Source: Parcubacteria group bacterium Gr01-1014_8 (GTDB lineage Bacteria; Patescibacteriota; Minisyncoccia; Phycocordibacterales; UBA2100). From it: a stretch of DNA of 64,000 bases. Location: assembly GCA_007376385.1 (NCBI GenBank), contig VMGC01000005.1, forward strand, positions 1-64,000, written 5' to 3'. This document shows, one piece after another, positions 3,682 to 52,096 of the stretch. The notes beneath the pieces were generated by a model. It had not been told where the DNA came from and searched no databases. It saw only the letters and a list, made by a program, of their open reading frames with translations. Each line of letters opens with the position of its first letter. Position 1 is the stretch's first letter. Made by a program: the position numbers and the translations under genes.

Positions 3682-3689
3682 ATATAAAA

Positions 3690-3905: not shown

Positions 3906-3907
3906 AC

Positions 3908-13453: not shown

Positions 13454-13798
13454 ATGGGCAATCCAATGGGTGGTCTGGGAAATCAGTTACCGAATCAGCG
13501 AAAATCGGCGTTAGACAAGGGATCGTGGGATAAGGGACCGAAAGACATGAGCATTCAAGACATGCCAAGCATACTGTCGGAGTTGGTACCTAAGGGTGTA
13601 CAAGGAGGTACTTTTTTGGAAAAACTAAATCGGGATTTTGGCACCGATGAGAGAGGCAAAGCTCTTTATTGCCGAGAGCAACTGAGCAGGATTCCCGAAC
13701 TTGATTGGCTCAAGCTCGACGCAGGAGAGCAAGCAGAACTAGAAAAAATAAAAGGCGAATTGATTTCTCAAGGAACAATTCTTGGTTCGTTGCTATAA
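13454..13798 (+). CDS. Hypothetical protein (114 aa)
   Basis: ORF only. Confidence 0.3.
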   Translation: MGNPMGGLGNQLPNQRKSALDKGSWDKGPKDMSIQDMPSILSELVPKGVQGGTFLEKLNRDFGTDERGKALYCREQLSRIPELDWLKLDAGEQAELEKIKGELISQGTILGSLL

Positions 13799-16229: not shown

Positions 16230-16432
16230 CCTCGGACATTTGCTGATTCTCTGGATGCGTTGCGGTTGGTTCTTGAATAAGCAAAAAAGAAGCCTGTAGT
16301 CAGGTACTTTTTATTGCCGAGGATAGTGAGAGAAATGAAAGTTGAGACTTTCATTTCCGAACGCCGCAGGCAACAAAAGCAACGCTTTTATACAACCGCT
16401 AACTAGTCCGCCTTTGGCGGACAGGAATACGC
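16230..16432 (+). promoter_or_regulatory. Long rpoB 5' leader with two hairpins: GAAATGAAAG-ttgagac-CTTTCATTTC (16331..16356) and TCCGCC-ttt-GGCGGA (16407..16421), the latter just before the RBS
   Basis: Perfect inverted repeats read from sequence. Confidence 0.35.
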
Positions 16433-32388: not shown

Positions 32389-32416
32389 GTAAGGCGCATT
32401 GTACCGTTTGTCTAGC

Positions 32417-32563
32417 TTATTTGCGAGCGTTGCGAGTAAAATGCAAAAGAGCACTTTTGCATTCCCGAGCCGAGGAGCAAACACAGGTTCAATACCTCGG
32501 AGCAAGCTCCGAGGAACCTTTATTTGTGAAGCGGGCAAATTCTCCCTGGACTTGAGACAGGGA
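32417..32563 (+). ncRNA. Structured RNA element, copy 1: TTATTTGCGAGCGTTGCGAGTAAAATG + hairpin 1 (AATGCAAAAG/TTTTGCATT) + CCGAGCCGAGGAGC + hairpin 2 (CTCGGAG-caag-CTCCGAG) + hairpin 3 (CCCTG…CAGGG). Directly upstream of the Ehr-like operon.
   Basis: Paralogous to 47594..47759 with compensatory substitutions in all three stems. Strand assignment is tentative. Confidence 0.5.
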
Positions 32564-33110: not shown

Positions 33111-33115
33111 TTTTT

Positions 33116-35080
33116 ATGGTTGCGTCTTTTTTTGTTGCCTCGCTGATTTTGCCGCTTGTAGCAGGAGTTGCTGCGCTTCTTCTCCTGCGTACAAAAGCGG
33201 GTCACATGCTCACGCAATTGGTTTTTGCTCTCGGCGGCCTAAGCGGTGTCGTTGGCGCAACGTTGTTCTATGCGAGCGATGGAGCGAGCACCGTCGTTTT
33301 TCATACGGCACTCTTTAGTCTTGTTGTCGGGACGCTTTCAGTATTCTTTTTGGGAATTATATCCGTCGGTGTTCTTCTCACATCGTTGTATGCGCTTGAG
33401 GGTCTGCGCAGATACAAAAGCGTCTATTCACTCCCGTGGCTTGCCGTTGCGTCTGCTTTTTTCATATTCGGCATGCAGGCAACGGTCATGGCCTCCTCTG
33501 TTGCGGGTTTTCTCGTTGCGTGGGAGTTGATGTCCGTCGCCGCATATTTCCTCGTTATAGCGGATGGCACTGAAGAATCACTGCATGCAGGCTTCTCGTT
33601 TTTTATCATGGCGCACATCGGGTTCGCGAGTCTTGTCGCAGGATTTCTACTTCTTTCTGCGGGCAATCCCTTTGCAGAGTGGCCGGAAGTAGCGCTCGCC
33701 GCAAAAACCATGACGCCGGCGACGCTCTCCGTCGCGTTCTCGCTTTTATTCATCGGCTTCGGCTCAAAAGCGGGTCTTGCCCCGCTCCATCAGTGGCTGC
33801 CCATGGCGCATCCGCAAGCGCCGAGCCACGCTTCGGCGTTGCTATCCGGCGTCATGTTGAAAGTCGCGCTTTTTGGGTTCATTCAATCGCTGTTCTTGTT
33901 TCCATCGGTTCCCCTATCATGGGGCGTTGTTGTCCTTGTGGTAGGACTCGTGTCGGCTTTCTTCGGCGTTCTGCACGCAGTCGTCGAGAGCGACATGAAA
34001 CGAGTACTCGCATGGAGCAGCATCGAGAACATGGGCCTTATTTTCTCTGGCGTAGGCGCAGCAATGATATTGCGCACGTTGCCGTACGAGGCAGGACCCG
34101 TACTCGCATCATCTATCGCCATTTTCGTTGCGCTCCATATCATCAATCACTTTCTCTTCAAGAGCGGGCTCTTCATGGCTGCGGGCGTTATCGTATCGGA
34201 AGTGCATTCTCGTGACATGGATATCATGGGGGGTTTAGCGCAAAAGTGGCCCATCTTCTCCGGCGTTTTTCTAGCTCTCGCGCTCGCAGCGGCAGCGTTG
34301 CCTCCGTTCGGTACATTCTTTGGCGAGTGGATGTATCTGCAATCTCTCGCACTTGCGCTTGTCGGTCTGCCTTTGCCGCTTTCCGTCGTTGCGGGACTCG
34401 TCCTCGCAGCCGTCGCATTGGTGAGCGGCCTTGCTATCGTTGCGTTCGTAAAAATGTTCTCAAGCGTCTTTTTAGGGAGAGCTCGAAATGAACATGCGGA
34501 ACATGTGGGGATGATGCCAATGTCTCTTATGTGGCCGCCAATGGTGTGCGCGATTCTTTCGATTGTTGCCGGGGTGCTTGCATTTCCTTTTTTTTCATCG
34601 CATTTTATGGATGGCGCGAGCATCATGCAAGATGTCGTTATCGTACAAGGCGCCTCCATGAACGCTTGGATCCTGTGGGCGCTTATCGCGGGTCTTGCGA
34701 TCATAGCGCTTCTTCTCGCGCGTTTTCTTCGCGTGCCGGTTCGCATTACGGATACGTGGGATTGCGGGCAGCCGCTCACGTCGCGAATGGAATATACGGC
34801 AACTGGATTCTCGGCACCGTTCCGCTTTTTCTTCCGTGCGTTCTTAGTATCGCGAAAAGAAATGATCGTTACGCCTATCTCTTCAGAGAATCCGTGGATA
34901 GCGAACCGGCGTCTCGAGTGGAGCATTACCTCAACATGGGAGCGGCTCTTTTATCGCCCCGTCGGGCAGGCATTGCTTCGTTTTGCTGAATACGCGCGCA
35001 AGTTCCAAAGCGGCGTCGTCCAGATGTACCTTTTGTTTGTTGTTATCGCTCTTGTCGGAGCATTCATTTTTGCGCTATGA
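33116..35080 (+). CDS. NuoL/HyfB/MnhA-like antiporter-type membrane subunit (654 aa)
   Basis: Multi-TM proton-pumping-subunit signature (…WLPMAHPQAPSHASALLSGVMLK…). Confidence 0.8.
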   Translation: MVASFFVASLILPLVAGVAALLLLRTKAGHMLTQLVFALGGLSGVVGATLFYASDGASTVVFHTALFSLVVGTLSVFFLGIISVGVLLTSLYALEGLRRYKSVYSLPWLAVASAFFIFGMQATVMASSVAGFLVAWELMSVAAYFLVIADGTEESLHAGFSFFIMAHIGFASLVAGFLLLSAGNPFAEWPEVALAAKTMTPATLSVAFSLLFIGFGSKAGLAPLHQWLPMAHPQAPSHASALLSGVMLKVALFGFIQSLFLFPSVPLSWGVVVLVVGLVSAFFGVLHAVVESDMKRVLAWSSIENMGLIFSGVGAAMILRTLPYEAGPVLASSIAIFVALHIINHFLFKSGLFMAAGVIVSEVHSRDMDIMGGLAQKWPIFSGVFLALALAAAALPPFGTFFGEWMYLQSLALALVGLPLPLSVVAGLVLAAVALVSGLAIVAFVKMFSSVFLGRARNEHAEHVGMMPMSLMWPPMVCAILSIVAGVLAFPFFSSHFMDGASIMQDVVIVQGASMNAWILWALIAGLAIIALLLARFLRVPVRITDTWDCGQPLTSRMEYTATGFSAPFRFFFRAFLVSRKEMIVTPISSENPWIANRRLEWSITSTWERLFYRPVGQALLRFAEYARKFQSGVVQMYLLFVVIALVGAFIFAL

Positions 35081-35180
35081 CCCCATGAGAGAAACGATCT
35101 AAATTCTTATGAATCACACCAATTGTAACGAGATGCAGTGCTTCGCTCAGGATCATATCTATTTTTCTCACGGGGTATGA
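35078..35180. repeat. IR element copy E: TGACCCCATGAGAGAAA …69 nt… TTTCTCACGGGGTATGA. Spans the stop codon of the upstream gene and the ATG of the downstream gene.
   Basis: Same arm consensus and ~70-nt spacing as copies A–C. Confidence 0.5.
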
Positions 35181-36124
35181 CCGTCACGATACTCATTTTG
35201 CAGTTCTTCTTAGTGCTCGCGGCAGCGCCCGCGACGGTGGGGATCGTGCGTAAAATAAAAGCGCGCTTTCAGAACAGGCGCGGCGCACGCATCACGCTTC
35301 CATACTGGTCGCTCCTTTCGTTGCTTCGAAAAGAAATGACCATCACGCGGCACAGTTCGTGGGTGTTTCGCATCGTTCCGTTCGTGGTCTTTGGAAGCGC
35401 ACTCGCGCTAGCAGCGCTTATTCCTTCTTTTGCTGTAGGAATTCTGGCCGCGAGCATGAGCAACATTTTTCTTGTCGGCGCCGTCGCCGCGCTCGGCTCC
35501 GCGTTCCTTGTTTTTGGCGGCATGGATACCGGAAGCACGTTCGGCAACATGGGCTCCAGCCGCGAGATGACGATAGCCTCATTGATAGAGCCTGCCGTAT
35601 ACGTATCGCTCGCTTCTCTTGCAACGCTCTCCGGTTCGTGGAGTTTGGATGGCATCGCACTATTTTTTGCCGCAAGTAAATGGGTGGAGATAATACTTCC
35701 GGCCTCACTTACGTTAGTGGCCCTCGTCTTTGTGCTGCTCGCAGAAAATGCGCGCTATCCGGTGGATAATCCTGCAACGCACCTTGAGCTCACAATGGTG
35801 CATGAGGCGATGGTCTTAGAATATTCCGGCCCATACCTCGCAATGCTCGAATACGCGTCGTGGATAAAATTGACTGCGATGCTGATGCTCGTGATGAATC
35901 TCGTAGCGCCGTGGGGTATTCTGACTTCTCCATTTGCTCTTGGGGCCACTCTCATCGCGCTCGTTGCATTTGCCATTAAGCTCGGCGTCGGTGCATTCGT
36001 CATTGCGTTCATCGAATCAACGATCGTAAAAATGCGCTTCTATCGAATGCAGGAATACATGTCTCTTGCGCTCATCGTTGCGCTCGGCGGTCTTGCTATT
36101 TCGCTTGTCTCAATTGCCGTATGA
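35177..36124 (+). CDS. NuoH/HycD-like membrane subunit
   Basis: 8-TM NuoH-like pattern. Start at MTVTILIL (the ORF begins at 35138). Confidence 0.7.
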   Translation: MTVTILILQFFLVLAAAPATVGIVRKIKARFQNRRGARITLPYWSLLSLLRKEMTITRHSSWVFRIVPFVVFGSALALAALIPSFAVGILAASMSNIFLVGAVAALGSAFLVFGGMDTGSTFGNMGSSREMTIASLIEPAVYVSLASLATLSGSWSLDGIALFFAASKWVEIILPASLTLVALVFVLLAENARYPVDNPATHLELTMVHEAMVLEYSGPYLAMLEYASWIKLTAMLMLVMNLVAPWGILTSPFALGATLIALVAFAIKLGVGAFVIAFIESTIVKMRFYRMQEYMSLALIVALGGLAISLVSIAV

Positions 36125-36774
36125 GTGCGCAGCTTACATTCGACCTCCCGACATTATTTGCATGCGGCATGCTGCTTCTATCGTTGATAATGGTAAGCCG
36201 CATGCGTCTTTCGTCGCTTGTCGGTATTTTCCGTTACCAGAGCGCGCTTCTTGCCATCTATGCGGTCATCCTTGCGATCTCTCATGATGAACCAGAATTG
36301 CTCGCGGTCGCCCTTTTTATTGCACTTGTGAAAGTGGTCCTCATACCAGCGTTTCTCATTCGCGTCGCAAAGCAAAATGGCGTGTCAGAGAGGCTTGATT
36401 CGTATTTGCGTCCGACGACGTCCACATCAGTAGGTTTGGTTGCCATCCTTCTCGCGTTTGCCGGAGCAGAGGCGACATTTGCTACGAGCGCGGGGCTCAT
36501 CATAGTTGCGTGCGTTTTTGCTCTCATTCTGACGGGGCTTATTCTTCTCATTACGCGCAAAGACATGTTCGGGCAGGGAATCGGATTTCTCGTGATGGAG
36601 AACGGCATCTATGCATTCGGGCTCGCTCTTGCTGGCGGAATGCCCATCTTTGTCGAGCTTGCAGTTCTGTTTAACCTTCTTGCGCTCACCGTTCTGATGG
36701 TTCTGTTGTTCCGAGTCGCGCAAAAGGTCCACTCTTCTGTTTCAACCGAGCATTTTAAGCGACTCATCGATTGA
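36121..36774 (+). CDS. HyfE-like small membrane subunit (NuoK-like C-terminal part)
   Basis: Hydrophobic 217 aa with GFLVMENGIYAFGLAL motif. Confidence 0.6.
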   Translation: MSAQLTFDLPTLFACGMLLLSLIMVSRMRLSSLVGIFRYQSALLAIYAVILAISHDEPELLAVALFIALVKVVLIPAFLIRVAKQNGVSERLDSYLRPTTSTSVGLVAILLAFAGAEATFATSAGLIIVACVFALILTGLILLITRKDMFGQGIGFLVMENGIYAFGLALAGGMPIFVELAVLFNLLALTVLMVLLFRVAQKVHSSVSTEHFKRLID

Positions 36775-36775
36775 T

Positions 36776-38227
36776 ATGACTGTATCTCTGCTCCTCATGG
36801 TTATTCTTGTCGCTGCTGCGATGCCGTATCTCTGTGCCACAACGAAACAGGTGCGTTCGCTCGCGATGATAGGAAGTACGAGTATTTTCCTGCTTTCTCT
36901 CTTTGTCGGGATTCCGGCGCTGTTTGCTCCAGCCGCTGTTACCGGCGCGGGTTTGTGGTACATCGATGCTCTGGGCGGGTTCTTTGTTCTCTTGATCGGA
37001 TTCGTTCAGTGGACAGGGACGCTCGTAAGCATGACGTACATGAAGGAAGAAGAGGCGCACGGGACGGTAACCGCGGCTAAGGTCAAACGATACTTCGTAC
37101 TCTTGCATCTTTTCGTCCTCGCGATGATGCTTGCTGTCGTCTCGAATAACACAGGCATCGTGTGGGTTGCGCTCGAGGGCACGACGCTGGTGACGACACT
37201 CTTGGTCGGTTTTTACGAACGAAAAGAATCTCTTGAGGCTGCCTGGAAATATCTCATTCTGTGCTCATCGGGCATTGCGTTCGGATTCTTGGGAATTCTT
37301 GTCATGTTCTATGCGGCTTCGACGACGGGGGCGGAAGGCGTTATCGGCATGACGTGGTCAGGGTCGGCACTTCTTGAAGCGGCGCTTCCCGTAAGCGTCG
37401 TAAAGATAGCGTTTGTGCTCTTGCTGATAGGGTTTGGCACCAAGGTTGGTCTTGTCCCGATGCACGCCTGGCTCCCGGACGCCCATTCAAGCGCGCCATC
37501 GCCAATTTCTGGCATGCTCTCGGGGGTGCTTCTCAACGCCGCGTTATTGCCGATACTTCGTTTCAAAAATATTGTTGACGGCGTTGCCGCGCCTGGTTGG
37601 ACCGATCAGCTTCTCATCGTATTCGGGGTTCTCTCTATCGCGCTTCCTGCAGCGTTCGTACTTGTTCAGCGCGATTACAAAAGGTTGCTCGCATATTCGA
37701 GCATTGAACACATGGGGCTCATTACGCTGTCGGCAGGACTCGGCGCGATTGGTTCCGTCGCCGCGACAATTCACATTGCGGGTCACGCTCTCGCGAAATC
37801 TGCGCTCTTCTTTGCGGCGGGAAACATCCTCTTGAAATATCACAGCACTAAATTCGAGAATGTCTCGGGGGTTACACGCATATTGCCTTACACAGGAGGG
37901 CTCTTTCTCGTTGCATTTTTGGCGCTTCTCGGCGTTCCGCCTTCACCCTTGTTTGCGAGCGAATACTTTATGGCGGCTGCTGCGATAGGCACGCATCCCT
38001 ACGCCACCGGCGCCGTCTTTCTCGCCCTCACTATCGTATTTGCCGGATTTGTGCGGCTCTTGATGCCGATGTTGTTTGGGGAGAGTCCTGACAGAGGTGG
38101 GCGGGAGAGATGGAACATATCGCACACCGCTATCACGTTGAATATCGTTTTACTTATCGGACTTGGTATTGCTCTCTGGATTGCTCCTGGAGAGGCGATC
38201 ATCCAACGCATTGCAGAAATTATTTAG
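36776..38227 (+). CDS. NuoN/NuoM/HyfF-like antiporter-type membrane subunit
   Basis: …MHAWLPDAHSSAPSPISGMLSGVLLNAA… signature. Confidence 0.75.
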   Translation: MTVSLLLMVILVAAAMPYLCATTKQVRSLAMIGSTSIFLLSLFVGIPALFAPAAVTGAGLWYIDALGGFFVLLIGFVQWTGTLVSMTYMKEEEAHGTVTAAKVKRYFVLLHLFVLAMMLAVVSNNTGIVWVALEGTTLVTTLLVGFYERKESLEAAWKYLILCSSGIAFGFLGILVMFYAASTTGAEGVIGMTWSGSALLEAALPVSVVKIAFVLLLIGFGTKVGLVPMHAWLPDAHSSAPSPISGMLSGVLLNAALLPILRFKNIVDGVAAPGWTDQLLIVFGVLSIALPAAFVLVQRDYKRLLAYSSIEHMGLITLSAGLGAIGSVAATIHIAGHALAKSALFFAAGNILLKYHSTKFENVSGVTRILPYTGGLFLVAFLALLGVPPSPLFASEYFMAAAAIGTHPYATGAVFLALTIVFAGFVRLLMPMLFGESPDRGGRERWNISHTAITLNIVLLIGLGIALWIAPGEAIIQRIAEII

Positions 38228-38231
38228 AAAT

Positions 38232-39752
38232 ATGACCATTCAATCACTCACACAAAGGATCGGGATCGCGGGAAAAGACTTCGTACTAGTTCCTCGTGAT
38301 GACCTGCACCGGCATGCAGAAGTTTGCGTTGAGGCAGGCGCTCCTCTCATGTTCATGTACGCAACAGAAGAGGCGAACGGATTTGTGGTACATGTAGTAT
38401 TTTCCGCAGAAGACGGCTTTCTGACATTGAAGGCGGAGCTGCCGCGCGATGATCCGACGTATCCGTCGCTCACTCGCAGTATCATGGCAGCGCATTGGTA
38501 TGAGCGATTGATGCATGACCAGTTCGGCATAGTTGCAGAGGGGCACCCCGACTGGCGACGACTCATACACCACGAGAATATCCCTGAAGGCACGCATCCG
38601 CTCCGTAAAGATTTTGCGTGGAATACGAAGCTTCCGCATGCGAATGTTCCGTACCCGATGCACGCAGTCACTGGAAAGGGAATTTATGAAGTTCCGGTCG
38701 GGCCGATACACGCAGGAATAATTGAGCCGGGCCACTTTCGTTTCAACGTTCGCGGAGAGAGAATTCTGACGCTCGAAGGAAAACTGTTCTTCAAGCATAA
38801 GGGCGTCGAGAAATTGGTTGAGGGAAAGACACCGGAGGAGGCTTTTCCCTTCATCGAAAGAATTTCTGGCGACATGGTCGCCGGGCATGCACTCGCGTTT
38901 GCGGAAGCTGTTGAAGCTGCATCTGGAGTCGCCATATCAGCGCGTGCGAAACATCTGCGTGTCCTGTGGAGCGAATTGGAGCGAGCAACGGCGCATGTTT
39001 TTGATATGGGGAATATGGGAGGCAACGGCACAGGATTTACATTCATGGCGGCACAAGGCTTTCGCATGGTCGAAGATATGCGTCGTTTGTATCAATCGCT
39101 CGTAGGGCACCGATTCTTGCGAGGCGCTATTGTGCTTGGCGGCGCGCATGATATTTCTGAGGGTGATGTTGAGAAGATCCGTGCCGTGATAGATGATATT
39201 GAGCGAGACATGAAAAAAGTTCTCGCAATTGCGTATGGAAGCGACGGGCTTATGGAGCGGTTTGAAACGACGGGAATTCTTTCACTTGAGGCCGCGAAAG
39301 CATACGGGGCGCGGGGAACGCCAGCGCGGGCGTCAGGGGTTACTCTCGATATACGAACGGGTCATCCCTATGCCGCGTACAAAGAGTTAGGAGTGAGCGT
39401 GGTGACTGAAAAAGGCGGCGATGTCGCGGCACGCTTCAAGGTCCGCGACAGGGAACTCACGGAGTCGTTCCGTCTTATCCGCGAAGTATTGAGAACTCTT
39501 CCGAAAGGCGAGGCGAAAACGAATTCCAATTTCAAACAGGGGAGTGCGCTCGGCGCAGTTGAATCATGGCGCGGCGCTATCATTGACTGGGTGAGGCTTG
39601 ATGCGGAAGGAAGAATTGACCGCTGTGCAATTTCAGACCCATCGTTCTGTAACTGGTCTCTTTTTGGCGAACTTGCGCCTGGCAACATTGTCCCGGACTT
39701 TCCTTTGTGTAATAAGAGTTTGAACCTTTCGTATTCAGGGACGGACCTCTAA
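38232..39752 (+). CDS. Fused NuoC-NuoD / HycE-like large-subunit homologue lacking the NiFe-binding cysteine motifs
   Basis: NuoC-like N-terminal region plus NuoD/HycE-like core. RxCGxC position reads RISGDM; C-terminal DPCxxC reads DPSFCN. Confidence 0.75.
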   Translation: MTIQSLTQRIGIAGKDFVLVPRDDLHRHAEVCVEAGAPLMFMYATEEANGFVVHVVFSAEDGFLTLKAELPRDDPTYPSLTRSIMAAHWYERLMHDQFGIVAEGHPDWRRLIHHENIPEGTHPLRKDFAWNTKLPHANVPYPMHAVTGKGIYEVPVGPIHAGIIEPGHFRFNVRGERILTLEGKLFFKHKGVEKLVEGKTPEEAFPFIERISGDMVAGHALAFAEAVEAASGVAISARAKHLRVLWSELERATAHVFDMGNMGGNGTGFTFMAAQGFRMVEDMRRLYQSLVGHRFLRGAIVLGGAHDISEGDVEKIRAVIDDIERDMKKVLAIAYGSDGLMERFETTGILSLEAAKAYGARGTPARASGVTLDIRTGHPYAAYKELGVSVVTEKGGDVAARFKVRDRELTESFRLIREVLRTLPKGEAKTNSNFKQGSALGAVESWRGAIIDWVRLDAEGRIDRCAISDPSFCNWSLFGELAPGNIVPDFPLCNKSLNLSYSGTDL

Positions 39753-45827: not shown

Positions 45828-46049
45828 CTAGGAGAGGGCGATTATCGCGGCGAACATGGTCGAAAGAAAAAGAAAACAGCCTCCTGCGTATATCACCACA
45901 GCAAAGGTCGCTACGAAGGCATTCATCGAAAAGCGCACCCAGTGGTAGGAAAGGATGATGCCTAAGATGATTGAGAGCGCTGCGGTTGCAACAAACATGA
46001 CCCACATCAGCGTTGTGACGAACTGGCCGGAGAGTACTCCTTCAGGCAT
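45828..46049 (-). CDS. Small hypothetical membrane protein (start at MPEGVLSG)
   Basis: Two TM helices. Confidence 0.3.
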   Translation of the reverse strand: MPEGVLSGQFVTTLMWVMFVATAALSIILGIILSYHWVRFSMNAFVATFAVVIYAGGCFLFLSTMFAAIIALS

Positions 46050-46112
46050 GCCGGTATTATGCCATTTTGGAGGACTGTGCGGACCTCCTCGACGTGAATA
46101 GCGAGGGGGTGG

Positions 46113-46215
46113 TATACCCCGTGAGATAACTGTTTTCGAGCTACACAAGATGTTAGGACACAGTAAAATATTTAATTCGTCAACAAGCTATACACGTCTT
46201 ATCTCATGGGGTATA
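46113..46215. repeat. IR element copy B: TATACCCCGTGAGATAA …68 nt… CTTATCTCATGGGGTATA
   Basis: Arms identical to copy A, including the G/T mismatch. Confidence 0.6.
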
Positions 46216-46227
46216 GTCTCTCCCTCT

Positions 46228-46656
46228 ATGCGTGCGCAAATACTGCAGACGCGGTTTGCTATTCGACGCTCCAAGCCGGGCCTGGGCTATGGGTTATTTG
46301 CCACGAACGCGATACCTGCAGGAGAGTTCGTGCTCGAATACAAAGGGCGTCACGTACCGACGGAAACGGCGGACAAGCTCAAAACTAAGTACCTTTTTGA
46401 GATAGACAGCTCATGGACCATCGACGGTTCAACAAGGGCGAATACTGCGCGATACGTGAATCACTCCTGCGCCCCGAATTGCGAGGCAGACGTACGAGAT
46501 GGGAAAGTGCTTATTTTTGCCAACCGGGAGATCGAGGCGGGGGAGGAGCTGACAATCGATTACGGAGAAGAATATTTCAAAGAGTTCATTGAGCCGCACG
46601 GCTGCAAGTGCGACCGCTGCAAGCACCCTCGGCTCGCATTCTGGCGCCGCTCGTGA
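46228..46656 (+). CDS. SET-domain protein (lysine methyltransferase-like)
   Basis: NHSCAPNCEA and ELTIDYG motifs. Start at MRAQ just after the IR arm. Confidence 0.7.
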   Translation: MRAQILQTRFAIRRSKPGLGYGLFATNAIPAGEFVLEYKGRHVPTETADKLKTKYLFEIDSSWTIDGSTRANTARYVNHSCAPNCEADVRDGKVLIFANREIEAGEELTIDYGEEYFKEFIEPHGCKCDRCKHPRLAFWRRS

Positions 46657-46669
46657 TAGGATTTTTGCC

Positions 46670-47044
46670 ATGAATAAAACAACAATGTTCTGGGCTATCG
46701 TTGTGCTGCTCATCATCGGCGGTCTCGGCGCATCGTGGTATATGAAAACCCTGCCGGGCCAGTACGACGCGCTCGCACAGTGTTTAAAGGACAAGGGCGC
46801 TCTTTTTTACGGCGCGTTCTGGTGCCCTCACTGCCAAGAACAAAAAAAGATGTTCGGCAATTCTGCTAAGCTTTTGCCGTACGTCGAGTGTTCGCTCGCT
46901 GACCAAAAAACACAAACTCCTATCTGTATTGAGAAAGAGATAAAGTCATATCCGACCTGGATATTTGCCGATGGAAGCAAATTGACCGGCGAACAGCAGC
47001 CGAAAGTATTGGCGGAGAAGACCGGTTGTTCAATGCCGGAATAA
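46670..47044 (+). CDS. Membrane-anchored thioredoxin-like protein (WCPHC)
   Basis: TM anchor + CxxC thioredoxin motif. Start at MNKTTMFW. Confidence 0.6.
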   Translation: MNKTTMFWAIVVLLIIGGLGASWYMKTLPGQYDALAQCLKDKGALFYGAFWCPHCQEQKKMFGNSAKLLPYVECSLADQKTQTPICIEKEIKSYPTWIFADGSKLTGEQQPKVLAEKTGCSMPE

Positions 47045-47045
47045 C

Positions 47046-47582
47046 ATGTCGGTGGGAGATCTTAATTCACTTCTCGCCCTTGGCACGCTCGCCATTCAGA
47101 TAGCCAGTGCGGTTTTGTTGGCGGTGTATTTTTTACCGAATCTTATTCCCGGTGCGTATGAAATACGTGCGTATGTGGGAAAGTGGGGAATTGCATTGGG
47201 ACTCGTTCTCATTCTGACAACAGCAGCGGCGAATCTTTACTACGAATCGTTTGGATTTGAGCCATGCTATTGGTGTTATTGGCAGAGGATTTTTCTGTAC
47301 CCGCAAGCTGTTTTGTTCGGAGTTGCTCTTTGGAAACGTGACATGCAAATTGCCGATCATTCTATTGCGTTATCGATTTTTGGAGCGGGCGTTGCTCTCT
47401 ATCACCACGCACTTCAAATGCTTCCCGGTAGCGGTCTTCCATGCCCGTCTGTAGGTGTCTCCTGCGCCACGCGCATCCTGTTCGAATTCGGCTACATTAC
47501 GTACCCTCTGATGGCGTTTTCGCTGTTTGCGTTTCTTATCGTGTTGATGTTGTTCGTGCGGTCTTCCTATCAGGCAAAATAA
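47046..47582 (+). CDS. DsbB/BdbC-family disulfide bond formation protein
   Basis: PCYWCYWQRIF (CxxC-xx-QR) and a second Cys pair LPCPSVGVSC in a 4-TM protein. Confidence 0.65.
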   Translation: MSVGDLNSLLALGTLAIQIASAVLLAVYFLPNLIPGAYEIRAYVGKWGIALGLVLILTTAAANLYYESFGFEPCYWCYWQRIFLYPQAVLFGVALWKRDMQIADHSIALSIFGAGVALYHHALQMLPGSGLPCPSVGVSCATRILFEFGYITYPLMAFSLFAFLIVLMLFVRSSYQAK

Positions 47583-47593
47583 TCTCTGCGAAA

Positions 47594-47759
47594 TTATTGG
47601 CGAGCGTTGCGAGTGAAATGAACGTGTACTCATGTTCATTTCCGAGCCGAGGAGCCAAAATACGGTTAATACCGCGCAGCAAGCTGCGCACGTGTGCGAG
47701 CGAAGCGAGCTCATCAGCAGGTCCAGGGCTTTGCCCTGGGGTTTAATACCGTTTATTTT
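47594..47759 (+). ncRNA. Structured RNA element, copy 2: the same three hairpins with covarying stems, ending in a hairpin + T-rich tract (terminator-like), in a convergent intergenic region
   Basis: See copy 1; here followed by GGTTTAATACCGTTTATTTT. Confidence 0.5.
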
Positions 47760-48241
47760 CAGCAACCGATCATGAGGCTGCCTCCCGTTTGAATGCGTAT
47801 CATGCCGGGATCTTGTCGTATTGGGGGGCCGGCCTCCAGATACGCACACACTTTCCAGTTGTGGCTTGTTGCGGGGTATACGTTGCCCGTTTCTGTGAAT
47901 ACTGTGTATTCGCACGGGGCAGATGACGATGAAGTGCAGATTGCCGTCGGTCTCGTGGGGTCTTTGTATGCGCTAAGGTCGGGTCCGCTTCCAGCACATG
48001 TATAGGCTGCGTCGCCGGCCGCTGTGCAGCCTGTGAACACTATTGGGCGGCTGTTATCTTCTCTGAGAGCTACGGCATTCGCTATCTGGCGAAGGTCCTG
48101 GATCCGGCGTGAATCGCGACTCTTGATGCGAGCAGAACTCAATGCGACAAACGCGATAGATGCGAGGATCGCAATGATACTCACAACGACAAGAAGTTCG
48201 ATGAGACTGAAGCCGGATTCTTTGGGAGAAGTTCCTCTCAT
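47759..48241 (-). CDS. Type IV pilin (prepilin N-terminal methylation domain GFSLIELLVVVSIIAILA; Cys-rich C-terminus)
   Basis: Class III signal peptide read from the translation. Confidence 0.8.
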   Translation of the reverse strand: MRGTSPKESGFSLIELLVVVSIIAILASIAFVALSSARIKSRDSRRIQDLRQIANAVALREDNSRPIVFTGCTAAGDAAYTCAGSGPDLSAYKDPTRPTAICTSSSSAPCEYTVFTETGNVYPATSHNWKVCAYLEAGPPIRQDPGMIRIQTGGSLMIGC

Positions 48242-48300
48242 GATGCATTGAGTACGATTATTGTAGCCTTGTTTAGGTTCGGTACGGCCTGTTTTGTGGA

Positions 48301-48855
48301 CTAGTGCGATTGGTTTTGCGATGCGAATTCCATGAACGTTGCCAGGAATTTCTTCAGCGACGCGATTGTTCTCTCGTCTGTAAGTTCCAAGTTCTCATCG
48401 AATTTCTCCTTTGCTGCCCCAAGATAGAATTCCGGCTGGCCCATGACCTTTGCGTCGAAATAGCCAAGGACGCGGCGTACATCGTATTGCGCAAACGATG
48501 CTCCACGAGGACCAGAGGAAGCACCGAGTATGCCGACGGGTTTTTTATCCCACGACAGCGGGTCGCTCTCCGGCCTCGAACTCCAGTCGAGGAAGTTTTT
48601 TATAGGGCCCGATGGTGTGCGATTAAATTCTGGTACGGCAAGCAAAACTCCATCTGCGGCCTTTATTTTTTCACGAAGCTCAGCAGCCAAAACAGGGAAA
48701 TTCGAGGCTTCAAGGTCTTGATCAAAGACAGGGAGTCCATCAATAGAAACAATTTCAATGTTCACGCCTTCGGGAGCGAGTTTTTTTGCTGCTCGTAGAA
48801 GTGCCGAGTTGTACGAGGCTTTTCGAAGACTGCCGGAAAATGCGACGATGTTCAT
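48301..48855 (-). CDS. NAD(P)H-dependent FMN reductase family oxidoreductase
   Basis: MNIVAFSGSLRKASYNSALL flavodoxin-like N-terminus. Confidence 0.7.
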   Translation of the reverse strand: MNIVAFSGSLRKASYNSALLRAAKKLAPEGVNIEIVSIDGLPVFDQDLEASNFPVLAAELREKIKAADGVLLAVPEFNRTPSGPIKNFLDWSSRPESDPLSWDKKPVGILGASSGPRGASFAQYDVRRVLGYFDAKVMGQPEFYLGAAKEKFDENLELTDERTIASLKKFLATFMEFASQNQSH

Positions 48856-48982
48856 ACTAGTGGGAGTATACACGTATCGTGGGCAGTCTGCTCAATGTTC
48901 CTGAAATATGAACATACCATCTTGTAGCCGGTCGGCACCATTAAGGTATGCTGAGTCTTTCGAAAAGTCGTGATACGAAAGG

Positions 48983-50635
48983 TTAAACACTCGTTTTCAC
49001 CATGTATTTTTCAATATCTGCTACGGTGCCTACGACTTTCTTACCGGGATTGAAAACGTTGTGAGGATCGAAGATGTGTTTCGTCTGCGAAAAGAGCTCG
49101 AGCATCTTTGGAGAGAACATTTCACTCAAAAAGGGCGTACGGATGATGCCGTCGTTATGTTCACCCGTCGTCGAGCCGTGATATTTTTTCACCAGTTCAT
49201 ACACCTTTGGGGCGAGTTCCAGGATCGTTCCGTGTACGTCTGGTTTTGAGAGATCCACGAGCGGGAATATATGAAAATTACCGTTGCCGATGTGTCCCGT
49301 GACGGCGTATATAAATTTCTCTTTATCAAGGAGGGCAAATAGTTGCGGAAGAAATTCAGGGTATGTTTGCGGAGGCACCACGAAATCATCAATAAACGCA
49401 GCAGCCGTAAGTCCGGGGAGTTTTTTTCTCAGGATAGCGAATGCTTCTCGTCTAACGACCCAGTATTTCTCCGCGGCTTTTTTATTTCTGGCGATGCGCG
49501 CTTCAACAGCGAGTCCCTCGAGGGCTCTCTCGGCTGCGAGCGCTCTGTGGAGCGCTTTTACCTGCGTATCTTCAGAAAATTCTGCCATCAATACAAGTTT
49601 TGGTATGCCGCCGCGCAATACGAGACCTACTTCCGGCAGGAAAGAGAAACCGAGGCGTATTGCTCTTGAGAGTCCCATTTGTGCTAAGAGTTGCGGAAGC
49701 AACCTTATCGCAAGTTTGAACGTATGGTCATCATAGGATTCGAATGATTCCGGATCGTTTTCAAGGATACGACGAACAACTTCCGGCAGTATCGCGAGGT
49801 CAGACAAAAATATGACAAGCATAGAACGATGCCGTCTTAACGTCACAAGTCCCAGCTTCATACGCGTCACGAGTCCCAGCGTTCCCTGCGAGCCAGTGAT
49901 GAGTTTCGTGAGGTCGAACACGTCGCTTTCCCGATCGTACACATTCCAAAGCGCATACCCAGCGGAGTTTTTTGATACGCGAGGCGTTGCAGCTCTTATT
50001 TCCTGCCAATTATTTTGGATGAGCTCATGCATGCGGCGGTAGACTTCACCCTCGAAATTCTGCTCCTCTTTTTTTGATTCGAGGTCATTTCGGGAGAGCG
50101 GGCGGATGGTTGCTTTTGAACCGTCGGAGAGAATAACGTCCAGCTCGCGAACATAGCGGTCCGTTTTGCCATAGCGAAGAGTGAGTTCGCCTGCAGAGTT
50201 ATTGGAGACAATGCCGCCGAGCGCGCATAACTCGCGCGAGGCTGGGTACGAGGGGAGCAGCATGCCCGTTTTTTCCAGTGTTTGTTTCTCGAAATCACGG
50301 TAGTACATGCCGGGCTCTGCGACGGCATAGTCCGAACCGACGTCAAACATACGGTTCATGTATTTAGTGAACGAAACGACTATCGAGTCCGTGAGAGGTC
50401 CGCCAGACATGTCGGTTCCCGCACAGCGGCCAGTTACCGAGATATGTTGGCCTTTCTTCTTCTCTTGCGCGACAAATTTCACCACGGCAGCGACATCGTC
50501 GGCGTTTTTGGGGTACACGACGAGCGAAGGCTTCCGTTCAAAAATACTGGTATCGCGGCTGAAATCGTGCAGAGTTTTTATGTCGTCAGCGACGTCTCCT
50601 TTTATGAGAGCGGCGACCTTCTCGCGAAGCATCAT
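48983..50635 (-). CDS. FAD-linked oxidase (GlcD/D-lactate dehydrogenase family)
   Basis: FAD-binding PCMH-type domain + C-terminal oxidase domain. Confidence 0.75.
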   Translation of the reverse strand: MMLREKVAALIKGDVADDIKTLHDFSRDTSIFERKPSLVVYPKNADDVAAVVKFVAQEKKKGQHISVTGRCAGTDMSGGPLTDSIVVSFTKYMNRMFDVGSDYAVAEPGMYYRDFEKQTLEKTGMLLPSYPASRELCALGGIVSNNSAGELTLRYGKTDRYVRELDVILSDGSKATIRPLSRNDLESKKEEQNFEGEVYRRMHELIQNNWQEIRAATPRVSKNSAGYALWNVYDRESDVFDLTKLITGSQGTLGLVTRMKLGLVTLRRHRSMLVIFLSDLAILPEVVRRILENDPESFESYDDHTFKLAIRLLPQLLAQMGLSRAIRLGFSFLPEVGLVLRGGIPKLVLMAEFSEDTQVKALHRALAAERALEGLAVEARIARNKKAAEKYWVVRREAFAILRKKLPGLTAAAFIDDFVVPPQTYPEFLPQLFALLDKEKFIYAVTGHIGNGNFHIFPLVDLSKPDVHGTILELAPKVYELVKKYHGSTTGEHNDGIIRTPFLSEMFSPKMLELFSQTKHIFDPHNVFNPGKKVVGTVADIEKYMVKTSV

Positions 50636-50737
50636 CGGAAAATTATAGCCCGACGAAGCGAGTGAAGCGAGAGCTTTGTTCTCGTTTCCGAGTAAGCGCA
50701 GATCAAACGAAAACGGCGACTATCTTATGGAGAGTCT

Positions 50738-52096
50738 CTATTTTTTCTTCTCCAGGGTTTCGAGGAGTTTATCAATCAGTAATTCCGTCTCAGCAGGGTT
50801 TTGTACTTGTCGGGTATCCACGCCAGCTTCCATTACGGTATAATCGTTGCCGCCCGGGTAGATGGCGTCTCCGATAAAAAGCATTTCTTTCGGCTGCACA
50901 CCTAAATTTTTTGCTAGCCAGAGAGCGCCGTAGGCTTTATTGATGCCTTTTGGAGTGATATCGATGGTCGTTGTTCCGCCGATGCCAAGTTCAAATTCCG
51001 GCAATCGTTTGTGAAGTGCCTCTTTCAGTTTTTTGCGTTTCGTCATATCGGGGTCCCATGCTCTTTTTTCTGCTTGGGTCGCTTCGAGTCCGCATGCCGT
51101 GAATACTATCTTCGAATCTCTCTCGAGTATCTCGGGTCGATATTTCGGGTTTTCATCAATTATTTTTACCTCACCGAGCGCTTCCTTGACGGCAGCTACC
51201 ACTTTTGTCCGCTCCTCTCCGGTAAATTTCATATGGTATTGGCTTTTCCACGAGCCATCTTCGAGCATGTGTGCTTCCGCAGAGGCGTTTGAGAATACAT
51301 AGAGCCTTTTCGCATGAGGATGTTTCTCAAGGGCTGGGAGAAACGCTTTTTCAATACGGGTGAACCCCGCCGATGAAAGGATGGCGACGGGAACGTGTTC
51401 AAGAAGGCGAGAAAGTTTGTCCACCATGTCAGGCGTTGGCGGTTGCCAGCTCTCGGCGAGCGTGTCGTCTAGGTCAAAGAGCACTGCCCGCGGAGATTTG
51501 AGATGGCTGTATCGATGTTTCCAAAACTCTCGCGCTAGGGGAAGGGTAGTGACGAAAATAATAGCGAGGACGACAAATTCGATATAATCGGCGGTTTGCG
51601 GTAGTACTTCTCCGAGCGTGTAGCCGAGGTACGATATACCGCTGGCCCAGAGCGCGCCTCCAAGCATGTTGTAGAACATGAATGTGCGATAATCCATGTT
51701 CGCAACGCCTGCGAGAATGGGTGCGAACGTGCGGACAATGGGGACAAAACGTGCGAAAAAAATTGTACGCGTGCCATATTTCGCATAGAAACGTTTGGTG
51801 CGCTCCAGGTATTCTTGCTTAAAAAAACGTGAATTAGGTTTCTCGAAAAAACGAACTCCGACTTTTGCTCCGAACCAGTATCCAACGTTGTCTCCAAGTA
51901 TTGCGGCGATGGCGACCAAGGGCACGATGATACGGATATCAAGAAATCCCTGGGACGCCAAAAAGCCCGCGGTAAAGAGGAGGCTCGCACCGGGAAGAAA
52001 GAAACCTATGATAAGACCGGATTCGGCGAAAATGATGGCGAACAGGCCTGGATAGCCGATGAGCTGTATCAGCTGGCCCAAATCATAAGGGAGCAT
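50738..52096 (-). CDS. DedA/SNARE-associated membrane domain fused to a HAD-superfamily hydrolase domain
   Basis: N-terminal DedA TM region; C-terminal DxDxT (VLFDLDDTL) and GDAIYPGGNDY HAD motifs. Confidence 0.7.
   Translation of the reverse strand: MLPYDLGQLIQLIGYPGLFAIIFAESGLIIGFFLPGASLLFTAGFLASQGFLDIRIIVPLVAIAAILGDNVGYWFGAKVGVRFFEKPNSRFFKQEYLERTKRFYAKYGTRTIFFARFVPIVRTFAPILAGVANMDYRTFMFYNMLGGALWASGISYLGYTLGEVLPQTADYIEFVVLAIIFVTTLPLAREFWKHRYSHLKSPRAVLFDLDDTLAESWQPPTPDMVDKLSRLLEHVPVAILSSAGFTRIEKAFLPALEKHPHAKRLYVFSNASAEAHMLEDGSWKSQYHMKFTGEERTKVVAAVKEALGEVKIIDENPKYRPEILERDSKIVFTACGLEATQAEKRAWDPDMTKRKKLKEALHKRLPEFELGIGGTTTIDITPKGINKAYGALWLAKNLGVQPKEMLFIGDAIYPGGNDYTVMEAGVDTRQVQNPAETELLIDKLLETLEKKK

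What the first reader, a model, noticed from the sequence alone, without database searches (positions are those of the whole stretch)
47594..47759. Structured RNA copy 2, free-standing with terminator, between dsbB-like and pilin genes
Same three covarying hairpins as copy 1, but followed by CCAGGGCTTTGCCCTGG + GGTTTAATACCGTTTATTTT (terminator-like). There is no downstream plus-strand gene. This suggests a trans-acting sRNA paralog or a 3'-UTR element. The contrast with the leader-like copy 1 is notable. A GCGAGCG(TT/AA)GCGAG direct repeat flanks the core here.
Basis: seen in the sequence. Interest (0 to 1): 0.6.

Follow-up and report, generated by a model that had tools for sequence, protein, structure and literature searches.

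The report
Structured interspersed repeat of Patescibacteria genomes
The flagged stretch is one complete copy of a roughly 165-base hairpin-rich repeat that is scattered through the small genomes of Patescibacteria (CPR bacteria), matches no catalogued RNA family, and behaves like a spreading genomic element, not like a dedicated small RNA with its own terminator.

Summary
The sequence features are real. Window 47594-47756 (+) shares blocks and compensated hairpins with 32417-32523. It is not a two-copy paralogue pair. A covariance model finds four copies in the window (16311-16391, 32417-32523, 47594-47756, 50643-50707) and a fifth 7 kb beyond it, all on the + strand. Two pattern scans found about 65 distinct relatives in Patescibacteria MAGs and groundwater or sediment metagenomes.

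Every member has a conserved GA-rich irregular hairpin (D1). Complete copies such as this one add a three-way junction (H2, H3, H4).

Copies lie in any intergenic context and in either orientation. They have no conserved promoter and no recurrent neighbouring gene. They are present or absent between syntenic relatives. One pair in this genome is 105/108 identical with unrelated flanks, and identity begins at TTAT and ends at TTTATT. Rfam and the literature searches gave nothing.

Best reading (confidence about 0.5): a non-autonomous, structure-dependent repeat that spreads duplicatively, possibly as single-stranded DNA. Here it is carried passively as the dsbB 3' UTR. An RNA-level function is not excluded.

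The parts
47594..47756 (+). Copy c2: complete ('long-form') element, from TTAT to TTTAT
   Evidence: CM R1 hit 47591-47661 at 66.6 bits, E=2e-19. The 3' domain aligns with complete copies from other genomes.
47594..47661 (+). Domain D1: irregular GA-rich hairpin, the core shared by all family members
   Evidence: In the 64-sequence alignment 81% of cells pair. There are 158 double-change cells against 58 in shuffles, and slid controls pair at only 34-56%.
47597..47601 (+). P1 5' strand (UUGGC), pairs with 47654-47658 (GCCAA)
   Evidence: MFE. P1 covaries across the family: UUGCC/GGCAA, UAUAACC/GGUUAUA, UGUC/GACA.
47602..47608 (+). 5' side of the purine-rich internal loop (GAGCGUU), opposite 47648-47653 (CGAGGA)
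   Evidence: The two sides co-vary as classes: GAGGAUA/GNCGCA, GAGCGUU/CGAGGA, GAGCGAA/AAGCGAU, GAGNCGA/GAGCGAA. Pairing geometry is inferred only.
47609..47613 (+). GCGAG, opposite CGAGC at 47643-47647. Predicted G-C, C-G, G.A, A.G, G-C (tandem sheared GA)
   Evidence: Pair 19-60 is GC 60 / GU 4. Pair 20-59 is CG 40 / UG 15 / UA 8. Pair 23-56 is GC 64. The GA pairs are inferred.
47615..47642 (+). H1: 12-bp hairpin with a conserved foot (GAAAUG/CAUUUC) and a variable, compensated top
   Evidence: Stems are mostly 10-12 bp across the family.
47662..47673 (+). 5' half of the closing helix of domain 2 (ACGGU-UAAU-ACC), containing the first GGTTAATACC
   Evidence: The MFE pairs 47662-47666 with 47748-47752 and 47671-47673 with 47740-47742. 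RNAalifold finds the ACCC/GGGU helix in 17 complete copies.
47674..47689 (+). H2: GCGCAG-CAAG-CUGCGC
   Evidence: Most copies have CGCGGC/GCCGCG. Compensated variants occur in c1, c2, L008 and L011.
47690..47722 (+). H3 position: here a weak hairpin (GAGC-GAAGCGA-GCUC, 47698-47712) that carries the second GCGAGCGAAGCGAG block (47696-47709)
   Evidence: The other complete copies listed have an ordinary 3-8 bp hairpin here, except L011, which has none. Only L058 shares the CGAGCG..GCGAG block.
47723..47739 (+).
   Evidence: Conserved in sequence in most complete copies. Compensated variants are CCCUGCGC/GGCGCAGGG in L058 and CCCCGAGGC/GGCCUUGGGG in L011. It is never found without D1 upstream in the loci searched.
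47740..47756 (+). 3' half of the closing helix (GGU-UUAAU-ACCGU) plus the terminal TTTAT
   Evidence: The TTTAT end was not part of the search patterns, yet it is present in nearly all short and long copies.
32417..32523 (+). Copy c1: medium form (D1 + closing helix + H2), lying in a divergent intergenic region upstream of the NuoB-like gene
   Evidence: CM 56.3 bits. It is 105/108 identical to copy c5 outside the window, with unrelated flanks.
16311..16391 (+). Copy c3: short form (D1 + AAAAGC-AAC-GCUUUU hairpin + AU), 41 nt upstream of rpoB
   Evidence: CM 80 bits, E=6e-24.
50643..50707 (+). Copy c4: degenerate D1, antisense to both neighbouring genes (48983-50635 -, 50738-52096 -)
   Evidence: CM 38.3 bits, E=8e-10. 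It was not used to build the model.
47046..47582 (+). dsbB-like gene, whose 3' UTR the element occupies
   Evidence: Pfam DsbB, E=2e-9. The stop codon lies 11 nt before the TTAT.
47759..48241 (-). Convergent type IV pilin-like gene. Its stop codon lies 2 nt beyond the element's TTTAT
   Evidence: Pfam N_methyl.

Best explanation
The stretch 47594-47756 is a complete copy of a dispersed, structured, non-autonomous repeat family of Patescibacteria.

Anatomy. The unit runs from TTAT to TTTAT. It consists of a GA-rich irregular hairpin (D1) followed by a three-way junction (H2, H3, H4). The junction is closed by two mutually pairing GGTTAATACC segments.

Spread. The family spreads duplicatively into T-rich intergenic sites next to TTAT. 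It decays by deletion between its internal direct repeats (long form to short form) and by point mutation.

Why the hairpins persist (inference). They are kept because the single-stranded form of one particular strand is the substrate of whatever copies or moves the element. The most likely agent is a trans-acting single-strand (HUH/Y1-type) transposase, as for IS200/IS605-derived elements and REPs.

At this locus. The copy is simply carried on the trx-dsbB transcript as its 3' UTR. H4 and the closing helix may incidentally help to end or stabilise that transcript.

Shown: family membership, anatomy, dispersal, lability, and a recent duplication. Inferred: the mobilisation mechanism and the single-stranded DNA substrate.
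For: Family and structure:
- Two independent scans gave 19 genome stretches and 75 metagenome stretches, which reduce to 65 distinct D1 sequences.
- H1 and the GCGAG/CGAGC helix covary strongly.
- G.U outnumbers A.C 56 to 24.
- The + strand folds better than the - strand with both RNA and DNA parameters.

Not tied to genes:
- Among 71 non-redundant copies, 24 are antisense in tandem regions, 14 sense in tandem regions, 14 convergent and 12 divergent.
- 112 flanking proteins fall into 134 Pfam families, none with more than 2 members, all housekeeping.
- There is no information upstream of position -3.
- Copies lie flush against terminator hairpins (7 of 71, against 0 in controls) or 1-9 nt from divergent start codons.

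Dynamics:
- c1 and the out-of-window copy c5 are 105/108 identical. Identity starts exactly at TTAT and ends at TTTATT, and the flanks are unrelated.
- The syntenic relative L099 lacks elements at the c2 and c4 sites. It has a complete copy between thyA and dcd, where this genome has a 12-nt spacer.
- D1 identity is 0.92 and 0.97 within two genomes, against 0.70 between genomes.
- Tandem and internally deleted copies occur. The second copy in L008 starts right after the first copy's TTAT.

Circumstantial:
- All 5 copies in this contig lie on the same, G-rich strand.
- A Y1_Tnp / RAYT-like gene lies in the window at 3929-4582 (Pfam E=7e-7; NCBIfam REP_Tyr_transpos E=3.5e-10, below its cut-off). 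It is syntenic and 77% identical in the relative.
- H1 loops show no GNRA or UUCG enrichment.
Against: - No transposase was found adjacent to any copy.
- No Y1_Tnp homologue was found in about 0.6 Mb of element-bearing loci.
- The Y1_Tnp-like gene in the window is flanked by its own 25-nt palindromes (ATGACCGACAT..ATGTCGGTCAT). These are unlike D1 and are not dispersed.
- Three loci from two other genomes that carry the same transposase family have no element within about 20 kb.
- Orientation does not follow local GC skew: 24 of 51 loci are positive.
- No empty site among near-identical strains was available, so the insertion chemistry (TTAT as target versus duplication) is not established.
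- The 5' TTAT was required by the search pattern. Among the CM-only hits I inspected it is present in 5 of 7.
- The three c1/c5 differences are not compensatory.
- Deep conservation of loop nucleotides across CPR classes would equally suit a functional RNA.
Confidence: 0.5

Rival explanations
1. A multi-copy structured non-coding RNA with an RNA-level function. For example, it could be a scaffold or decoy for a conserved RNA-binding protein that recognises the GA-rich kinked helix. It would be made from read-through or local promoters, and the copies would be kept alike by gene conversion.
For: - Loop nucleotides are conserved while stems covary.
- There is a G.U excess on one strand.
- The two-domain architecture with a three-way junction is conserved across MAGs labelled Berkelbacteria, Dojkabacteria, Adlerbacteria and Parcubacteria.
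- Folding z-scores are -4.7 and -6.1.
- Tiny CPR genomes keep roughly one copy per 15-20 kb.
Against: - There is no conserved promoter.
- Many copies have no room for one.
- 24 of 38 copies in tandem regions are antisense to both neighbours.
- Positions are not conserved between syntenic relatives.
- No Rfam family matches even at E<=10.
- No GNRA or UUCG loops are enriched.
- Degenerate, truncated and tandem copies are common.
Confidence: 0.25
2. A cis-acting 3'-end module. The element would act as a terminator or mRNA stabiliser for the gene it follows, here dsbB, and through its near-symmetric closing hairpin also for the convergent gene.
For: - c2 starts 11 nt after the dsbB stop and ends 2 nt before the pilin stop.
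- In the short form the 3' hairpin is AAAGGG-loop-CCCUUU followed by AUUU, with an A-run and a U-run on its two sides.
- Several upstream co-directional ORFs end within a few nt of the element's 5' end.
- Eleven convergent ORFs end in the TAA complementary to the terminal TTTAT.
Against: - H4 is not followed by a U-run and fails the terminator scan.
- Orientation relative to neighbours is close to random, and 12 copies lie in divergent regions.
- Some copies come directly after a canonical terminator.
- The large conserved D1 domain has no role in this model.
Confidence: 0.1
3. A host DNA-level signal that works as a folded single strand. One example would be a primase or primosome entry (single-strand initiation) site on the lagging-strand template. 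Another would be a binding site for a nucleoid or replication protein.
For: - All five copies in about 74 kb of this contig are on the G-rich strand.
- Copies are co-oriented on two other contigs, 4 of 4 and 2 of 2.
- C(GNA)G mini-hairpins such as GCGAAGC follow D1 in one subfamily and occur in c2's H3. From my own knowledge, these are unusually stable in DNA.
Against: - There is no association with local GC skew over 51 loci.
- Opposite orientations occur within 1 kb in L074 and L080, and on one 103-kb contig.
- Copies come and go between relatives.
Confidence: 0.07

Closest known systems
REP/BIME elements and REPINs, mobilised by RAYT (Y1/HUH) transposases
   Same: - Dispersed intergenic repeats in both cases.
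- Strand-specific hairpins are maintained by selection.
- Each genome has its own subfamilies.
- No transposase sits next to most copies.
- A RAYT-like gene, conserved and syntenic like a host gene, is present in this window.
   Different: - REPs are 20-40 nt single imperfect palindromes with a conserved 5' GTAG, usually arranged as inverted doublets. This unit is 65-175 nt with an irregular GA-rich hairpin plus a three-way junction, and is mostly solitary.
- The RAYT-like gene here is flanked by a different palindrome that is not dispersed.
IS200/IS605-derived non-autonomous elements (PATEs)
   Same: - There are no terminal inverted repeats.
- Hairpins lie near both ends.
- A constant tetranucleotide (TTAT) lies on the left, and the element itself ends in TTAT.
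- A tandem copy starts directly after the previous copy's TTAT.
- The element is asymmetric between strands.
   Different: - No cognate full-length IS with matching ends was found.
- Hairpin tops vary and covary between copies, whereas PATE copies are near-identical.
- No replication-linked orientation bias appears in the pooled loci.
Other structured bacterial intergenic repeats (ERIC/IRU, Correia/NEMIS, BOX, RUP, Rickettsia RPEs)
   Same: - Sizes of 100-200 nt are similar.
- Copies are co-transcribed with neighbouring genes in either orientation.
- Some copies overlap gene ends and supply stop codons.
   Different: Those elements have terminal inverted repeats and/or target-site duplications, and copies are highly similar in sequence. 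No sequence similarity to them was found. This comparison rests on my own knowledge, not on a search.
Intrinsic (Rho-independent) terminators and 3'-UTR-derived sRNAs
   Same: A GC-rich hairpin (H4) lies near the 3' end of a transcript, and T-rich sequence follows within 13 nt.
   Different: No U-run directly follows the stem. The hairpin and its tail are conserved in sequence as internal parts of a larger element found in all genomic contexts.

Membership tests
Any Rfam 15 family | Covariance-model match | tested here: not met
   There was no match in the window at gathering score. There was none at E<=10 on 47500-47850, and none on the elements in 20 member loci at E<=1.
Intrinsic terminator | GC-rich stem followed at once by a U-run | tested here: not met
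   The scan of 46000-49000 does not list 47723-47739. The tail is GGUUUAAUACCGUUUAUUUU.
Stand-alone sRNA gene | Own promoter at a fixed distance upstream | tested here: not met
   No promoter-like site precedes c2. Across 70 copies the information content is about 0 beyond position -3.
Stand-alone sRNA gene | Discrete stable transcript | not testable with these tools
   No expression data are available.
Cis-regulatory leader / riboswitch | Consistent sense position upstream of one class of genes | tested here: not met
   Only 27 of the 69 non-redundant copies with a called downstream gene have a co-directional one. No Pfam family recurs more than twice among 112 neighbours.
REP / REPIN | Short (20-40 nt) imperfect palindrome with a conserved 5' tetranucleotide, usually in inverted doublets | tested here: not met
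   The unit is 65-175 nt with several hairpins. Inverted pairs are seen only in L074 and L080.
REP / REPIN | RAYT gene flanked by the same repeat | tested here: not met
   The RAYT-like gene 3929-4582 is flanked by ATGACCGACAT..ATGTCGGTCAT palindromes, not by D1. The CM finds no D1 near it.
IS200/IS605-type non-autonomous element (PATE) | No terminal inverted repeats; subterminal hairpins at both ends | tested here: met
   The 5' end TGCCGAGG... and the reverse complement of the 3' end are unrelated by eye. H1 lies near the left end and the closing hairpin at the right end.
IS200/IS605-type non-autonomous element (PATE) | Insertion 3' of a fixed tetra- or pentanucleotide, without target duplication | tested here: inconclusive
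   TTAT is on the left of all pattern-derived copies by design, and of 5 of 7 CM-only copies. The right end TTTAT was found independently. No empty site is available to tell a target from a duplication.
IS200/IS605-type non-autonomous element (PATE) | Cognate autonomous IS with the same ends | tested here: not met
   None was found in the window or in about 0.6 Mb of loci.
IS200/IS605-type non-autonomous element (PATE) | Orientation linked to the direction of replication | tested here: inconclusive
   5 of 5 copies are on the G-rich strand of this contig. Across all loci only 24 of 51 have positive skew.
MITE (classical) | Terminal inverted repeats plus target-site duplication | tested here: not met
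   The ends are not inverted repeats (by eye). TTAT at both ends could be a 4-bp duplication, but this is unresolved.
tRNA-like / T-loop element | tRNA fold, or a conserved T-loop pentanucleotide | tested here: not met
   ARAGORN finds nothing. The GGGUUUAAUACCC loop varies freely in short copies, for example UUAGCG, AUUAUC, CUUUGAG.
Kink-turn | Three-nt bulge directly followed by G.A/A.G, with GA next to the C helix on the other strand | tested here: not met
   Manual threading of D1 does not fit in any sequence class. Tandem GA pairs remain likely.

The most novel reading that the evidence does not exclude
D1 plus the three-way junction may be a previously unrecognised functional nucleic-acid fold of Patescibacteria. 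It could be a new class of structured RNA that binds a conserved partner. Alternatively, it could be a single-stranded-DNA signal, for example for priming or for a domesticated Y1 enzyme, that the host keeps in dozens of copies despite extreme genome reduction.
Probability: 0.25. Interest if true: 0.7.

Novelty: new variant of a known kind. Interest (0 to 1): 0.5.

Why it matters
Patescibacteria have some of the smallest and most streamlined bacterial genomes. In the stretches I could examine they carry about one copy of this 65-175 nt structured element per 15-20 kb.

The family is absent from Rfam 15, and four full-text searches did not find it. Gene callers sometimes annotate it as a small ORF, for example the 76-aa "gene" in L099.

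If it is a mobile element, it offers a way to study genome dynamics and a possible trans-acting mobilising enzyme in organisms that cannot be cultured. If it is a functional RNA or a single-stranded-DNA signal, it would be a new widespread fold.

In practice, recognising it prevents individual copies from being misread as leaders, sRNAs, terminators or genes.

Tried and rejected
- Rfam at gathering and permissive thresholds, on the window and on 20 member loci: nothing on the elements.
- tRNA-like or T-loop reading of GGTTCAATACC: ARAGORN is negative, and the loop is variable in short copies.
- Kink-turn threading of D1: does not fit.
- Own promoter: no conserved boxes.
- Riboswitch or leader: no gene association.
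- H2-H4 as a separate element nested in the short form: the H4 motif never occurs without D1. The two flanking GGGTTTAATACC repeats pair with each other, so deletion between them (long to short) is the simpler reading.
- Small ORF inside the element: forward frames are full of stops. The reverse-strand ORF is not kept in frame, because H1 length varies.
- Classical MITE: no terminal inverted repeats.
- Phage or plasmid origin: no hit in IMG/VR with two patterns. The first of these was mis-specified for one sequence class.
- Replication-linked orientation: not supported by local skew.
- Synteny of c2-like copies: L058, the closest relative of c2, lies in an unrelated context.
- Serine recombinase next to a copy in L074: a single case, and the locus is cut short.
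- Linking the family to the Y1_Tnp gene of the window: its flanking palindromes differ, and no homologue is found in the element loci.
- Literature: four searches, including sequence strings, found nothing relevant.

Full report
**Observation**

- H1 lies at 47615-47642 and H2 at 47674-47689.
- CCAGGGCTTTGCCCTGG lies at 47723-47739 and is followed by GGTTTAATACCGTTTATTTT.
- The two GCGAGCG(TT/AA)GCGAG blocks lie at 47600-47613 and 47696-47709.
- The element sits between a DsbB-family gene (47046-47582, +) and a convergent pilin-like gene (47759-48241, -).
- BLASTN links it to 32417-32511 at E=2.6e-16. The two copies share exact 14-mers while their stems differ with compensation.
- The + strand folds better than shuffles and better than the - strand, with RNA and with DNA parameters.
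- Rfam has no match, even at E<=10.

**It is a family, not a pair**

A degenerate pattern built from three window copies was scanned against species-representative genomes. It returned 19 stretches. Most are MAGs labelled Patescibacteria group, Berkelbacteria, Dojkabacteria or Adlerbacteria, and one MAG contributed five hits.

A slightly looser pattern returned 75 stretches from metagenomes. About 15 of the 94 stretches lack the hairpin and look like chance matches. The rest give 65 distinct sequences.

A covariance model of the shared core (R1) finds four copies in the window, all on the + strand:

| Copy | CM hit | Bits |
|---|---|---|
| c3 | 16308-16376 | 80 |
| c2 | 47591-47661 | 66.6 |
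| c1 | 32414-32484 | 56.3 |
| c4 | 50640-50707 | 38.3 (not used to build the model) |

A fifth copy lies 7 kb beyond the window's end on the same contig and the same strand (L103 18181-18251, 64 bits).

The source is a 190-kb metagenome contig. NCBI names the identical DsbB protein as coming from Parcubacteria group bacterium Gr01-1014_8.

**Anatomy**

All members share D1, which reads TTAT, P1, a 7-nt purine-rich strand (GAG NNNN), GCGAG, one unpaired base, H1, CGAGC, a 6-7-nt strand ending in A, and P1'.
- In the 64-sequence alignment 81% of cells pair. Shuffles give 71% and slid controls give 34-56%.
- There are 158 cells with changes on both sides, against 58 in shuffles.
- G.U outnumbers A.C 56 to 24 in H1 and the GCGAG/CGAGC helix. 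The fold therefore belongs to the strand as written.
- GCGAG and CGAGC can form G-C, C-G, G.A, A.G, G-C. This geometry is inferred.
- The two sides of the large internal loop change together as classes.
- Caveat: the pattern itself required TTAT, CGAG, GNGAG, RAA and TTYCCGAR. Their invariance in the alignment is therefore partly due to how the copies were collected.

After D1 there are three architectures.
- Short copies of about 85-93 nt add one hairpin, CAAAG-stem-loop-stem-CUUUAU.
- Complete copies of about 143-175 nt, such as c2, have a three-way junction of H2, H3 and H4.
- A 'TTATAACC' class adds only a mini-hairpin, often GCGAAGC.

In complete copies the junction is closed by two GGTTAATACC segments that pair with each other. 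In c2 these pairings are 47662-47666 with 47748-47752, and 47671-47673 with 47740-47742.

It is conserved in sequence in complete copies from other genomes. It is compensated in L058 and L011. It fails the terminator criteria. It never occurs without D1 upstream.

Deletion between the two direct GGTTAATACC repeats would turn a long copy into a short one that still folds. This explains why long and short copies with 96-99% identical D1 coexist on one contig.

The second GCGAGCGAAGCGAG block of c2 lies in the variable H3 position. Only the closest relative, L058, shares it.

**Context**

Among 71 non-redundant copies, 24 are antisense to both neighbours in tandem gene pairs and 14 are sense. A further 14 lie in convergent regions and 12 in divergent regions. 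The gene calls here are my own crude ones.

112 flanking proteins hit 134 Pfam families. None has more than two members, and the families shown are ordinary housekeeping ones. All-against-all BLASTP shows no recurrent neighbour.

Upstream of the TTAT there is no conserved signal beyond a T-rich run at -1 to -5.

The copies are tightly packed.
- Several lie 1-9 nt from a divergent start codon.
- Eleven convergent ORFs stop in the TAA complementary to the terminal TTTAT.
- Some upstream ORFs run into the element.
- Seven of 71 directly follow a perfect terminator-like hairpin plus T-run, against none in control windows.

These facts argue against a dedicated promoter, a leader role, or a consistent 3'-UTR role.

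**Dynamics**

c1 and the fifth copy c5 are 105/108 identical. Their flanks are unrelated, and identity begins at TTAT and ends at TTTATT. This shows a recent duplicative dispersal in this genome and defines the unit.

In the syntenic relative L099 (DsbB 64% identical), dsbB overlaps the FAD-oxidase gene. There is no element or pilin gene at the c2 site and none at the c4 site. A complete copy does sit, antisense, between thyA and dcd, where this genome has a 12-nt spacer. It was called there as a 76-aa gene. L098 and L101 also lack an element after dsbB.

D1 identity within two genomes is 0.92 and 0.97, against 0.70 between genomes. The window's copies c1-c3 are as diverged (0.72) as copies from unrelated genomes.

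Tandem and internally deleted copies exist (L031, L085, L008). In L008 the second copy begins immediately after the first copy's TTAT.

**Mechanism**

The family proliferates and decays like a non-autonomous mobile repeat. Several features resemble elements handled as single strands by HUH/Y1 transposases (IS200/IS605 derivatives and REPs; their properties are taken from my own knowledge):
- It has no terminal inverted repeats.
- It has hairpins near both ends.
- It has a constant TTAT on the left and ends in TTAT.
- Only one strand forms good structure.

Two circumstantial points fit this reading.
- All five copies on this contig are on the G-rich strand.
- The window encodes a Y1_Tnp / RAYT-like protein at 3929-4582 (-). 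Pfam gives E=7e-7, above its cut-off, and NCBIfam REP_Tyr_transpos gives E=3.5e-10, below its cut-off. The protein has more than 2,600 relatives at E<=1e-5. The 120 listed are 58-78% identical, and those that carry names are from Patescibacteria. It sits in the same place (dnaE, Y1_Tnp, aaRS) in the relative, which is how a domesticated gene behaves.

The link is unproven, however.
- That gene is flanked by its own 25-nt palindromes, which are unlike D1 and are not dispersed.
- No homologue lies in the element-bearing loci.
- Three loci from two other genomes, all carrying the same transposase family, have no element within about 20 kb.
- Pooled orientation does not follow local GC skew, with 24 of 51 loci positive.

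I put the 'spreading structured repeat' reading at about 0.5. The single-stranded DNA/HUH mechanism is its most likely but unshown engine.

At this particular locus the copy is in sense, 11 nt after the dsbB stop, with no promoter-like site in front of it. If it is transcribed at all, it is the dsbB 3' UTR.

**Rivals**
- A functional multi-copy RNA (0.25) would explain the conserved loop nucleotides and the deep conservation. It would not explain the missing promoter, the antisense majority, the lability or the decayed copies.
- A terminator or stabiliser module (0.1) fits c2's position. It does not fit the family's contexts or the D1 domain.
- A host single-stranded-DNA signal (0.07) fits the co-orientation on three contigs, but not the pooled skew.

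**Comparison and novelty**

The element works most like REP/REPIN or IS200/IS605-derived elements, but it fails defining tests for each. It is too long and complex for a REP. No cognate IS or RAYT is flanked by it. It is not a classical MITE and not an Rfam family. Four literature searches found nothing.

I class it as a new variant of a known kind, namely structured interspersed bacterial repeats. Interest is moderate (0.5). The family is widespread in an important, poorly understood lineage and is easily misannotated, but its function is unresolved.

Noticed in passing
window 3929-4582 (-), with 3908-3932 and 4592-4616: A 217-aa Y1_Tnp (IS200-like) / RAYT-like gene with an HUH motif (NHYHLLL). 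It is flanked by two identical 25-nt palindromes (ATGACCGACAT-CGT/ACG-ATGTCGGTCAT), with partial copies at 4663-4701. The gene and its compensated palindromes keep the same position (dnaE, Y1_Tnp, aaRS) in relative L104. The family is 58-78% identical across many Patescibacteria, which looks domesticated and not mobile.
   Followed up: partly
window 3742-3975 (-): A weak T-box leader match (29.5 bits against a gathering score of 93, E=6e-5) upstream of the class II aaRS gene 2434-3771. It contains AGCTAGGTGGAACCGCGG and overlaps the 3' palindrome of the Y1_Tnp unit. A similar sequence occurs in L104. It is probably a divergent T-box that the standard Rfam threshold misses.
   Followed up: partly
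L103 18183-18291 (+), about 7 kb beyond the window end: A fifth copy of the element, 105/108 identical to the copy at 32417-32523. It lies antisense between a response-regulator gene and an ABC-transporter gene.
   Followed up: yes
window 13663-13731 (+): A weak D1-like match (14 bits, E=0.12: CTTTATTGCCGAG...CCCGAAC...GACGCAGG) inside a called 114-aa ORF with no Pfam hit (13454-13798). It may be a decayed copy absorbed into a gene, or it may be chance.
   Followed up: no
L099 12177-12344: The FAD-oxidase/VTT-PMM spacer of the syntenic relative corresponds to the place where the window has copy c4. Instead of an element it holds five AAGTATCA octamers followed by a run of inverted TGATAC(T/C)T copies. 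This is an unexplained repeat array.
   Followed up: no
L003 1805-1910 (+): A Patescibacteria MAG carries a tandem array of a 34-nt unit (TTATTTCCGAGTGAAGCGAGGAAACAAGATTTTC, three copies). The unit looks like the 5' half of D1 joined to its 3' CCGAG. The CM scores it at 49 bits.
   Followed up: no
L074 1911-1981 (-) and 2989-3056 (+): Two inverted D1 copies bracket two small ORFs (180 and 77 aa). A gene follows whose N-terminus (MSKYDFIPDEPRAVIAYCRVSSREQEEGY) looks like a serine recombinase. The stored locus ends there.
   Followed up: partly
window 32595-39752 (+): Copy c1 precedes an operon with NuoB-like (Oxidored_q6), Proton_antipo_M, NADHdh (NuoH-like), and fused Complex1_30kDa/49kDa with a weak NiFeSe_Hases hit. 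This is a group-4 hydrogenase-like or Mrp-like membrane complex, which is unusual for a Parcubacteria genome.
   Followed up: no
window 1-64000: The 64 kb contain no tRNA gene and no Rfam family at gathering score.
   Followed up: yes
window 46150-47582; L099 9115-10534; L101 8065-10537: In the window and L099 a SET-domain methyltransferase gene lies directly next to the thioredoxin-like/DsbB pair. In L101 it lies about 1 kb away, with two other genes between.
   Followed up: no
L104 1-1850; L105 11129-14812: Intein_splicing domains occur inside SMC-like and GyrA genes of related Patescibacteria contigs.
   Followed up: no
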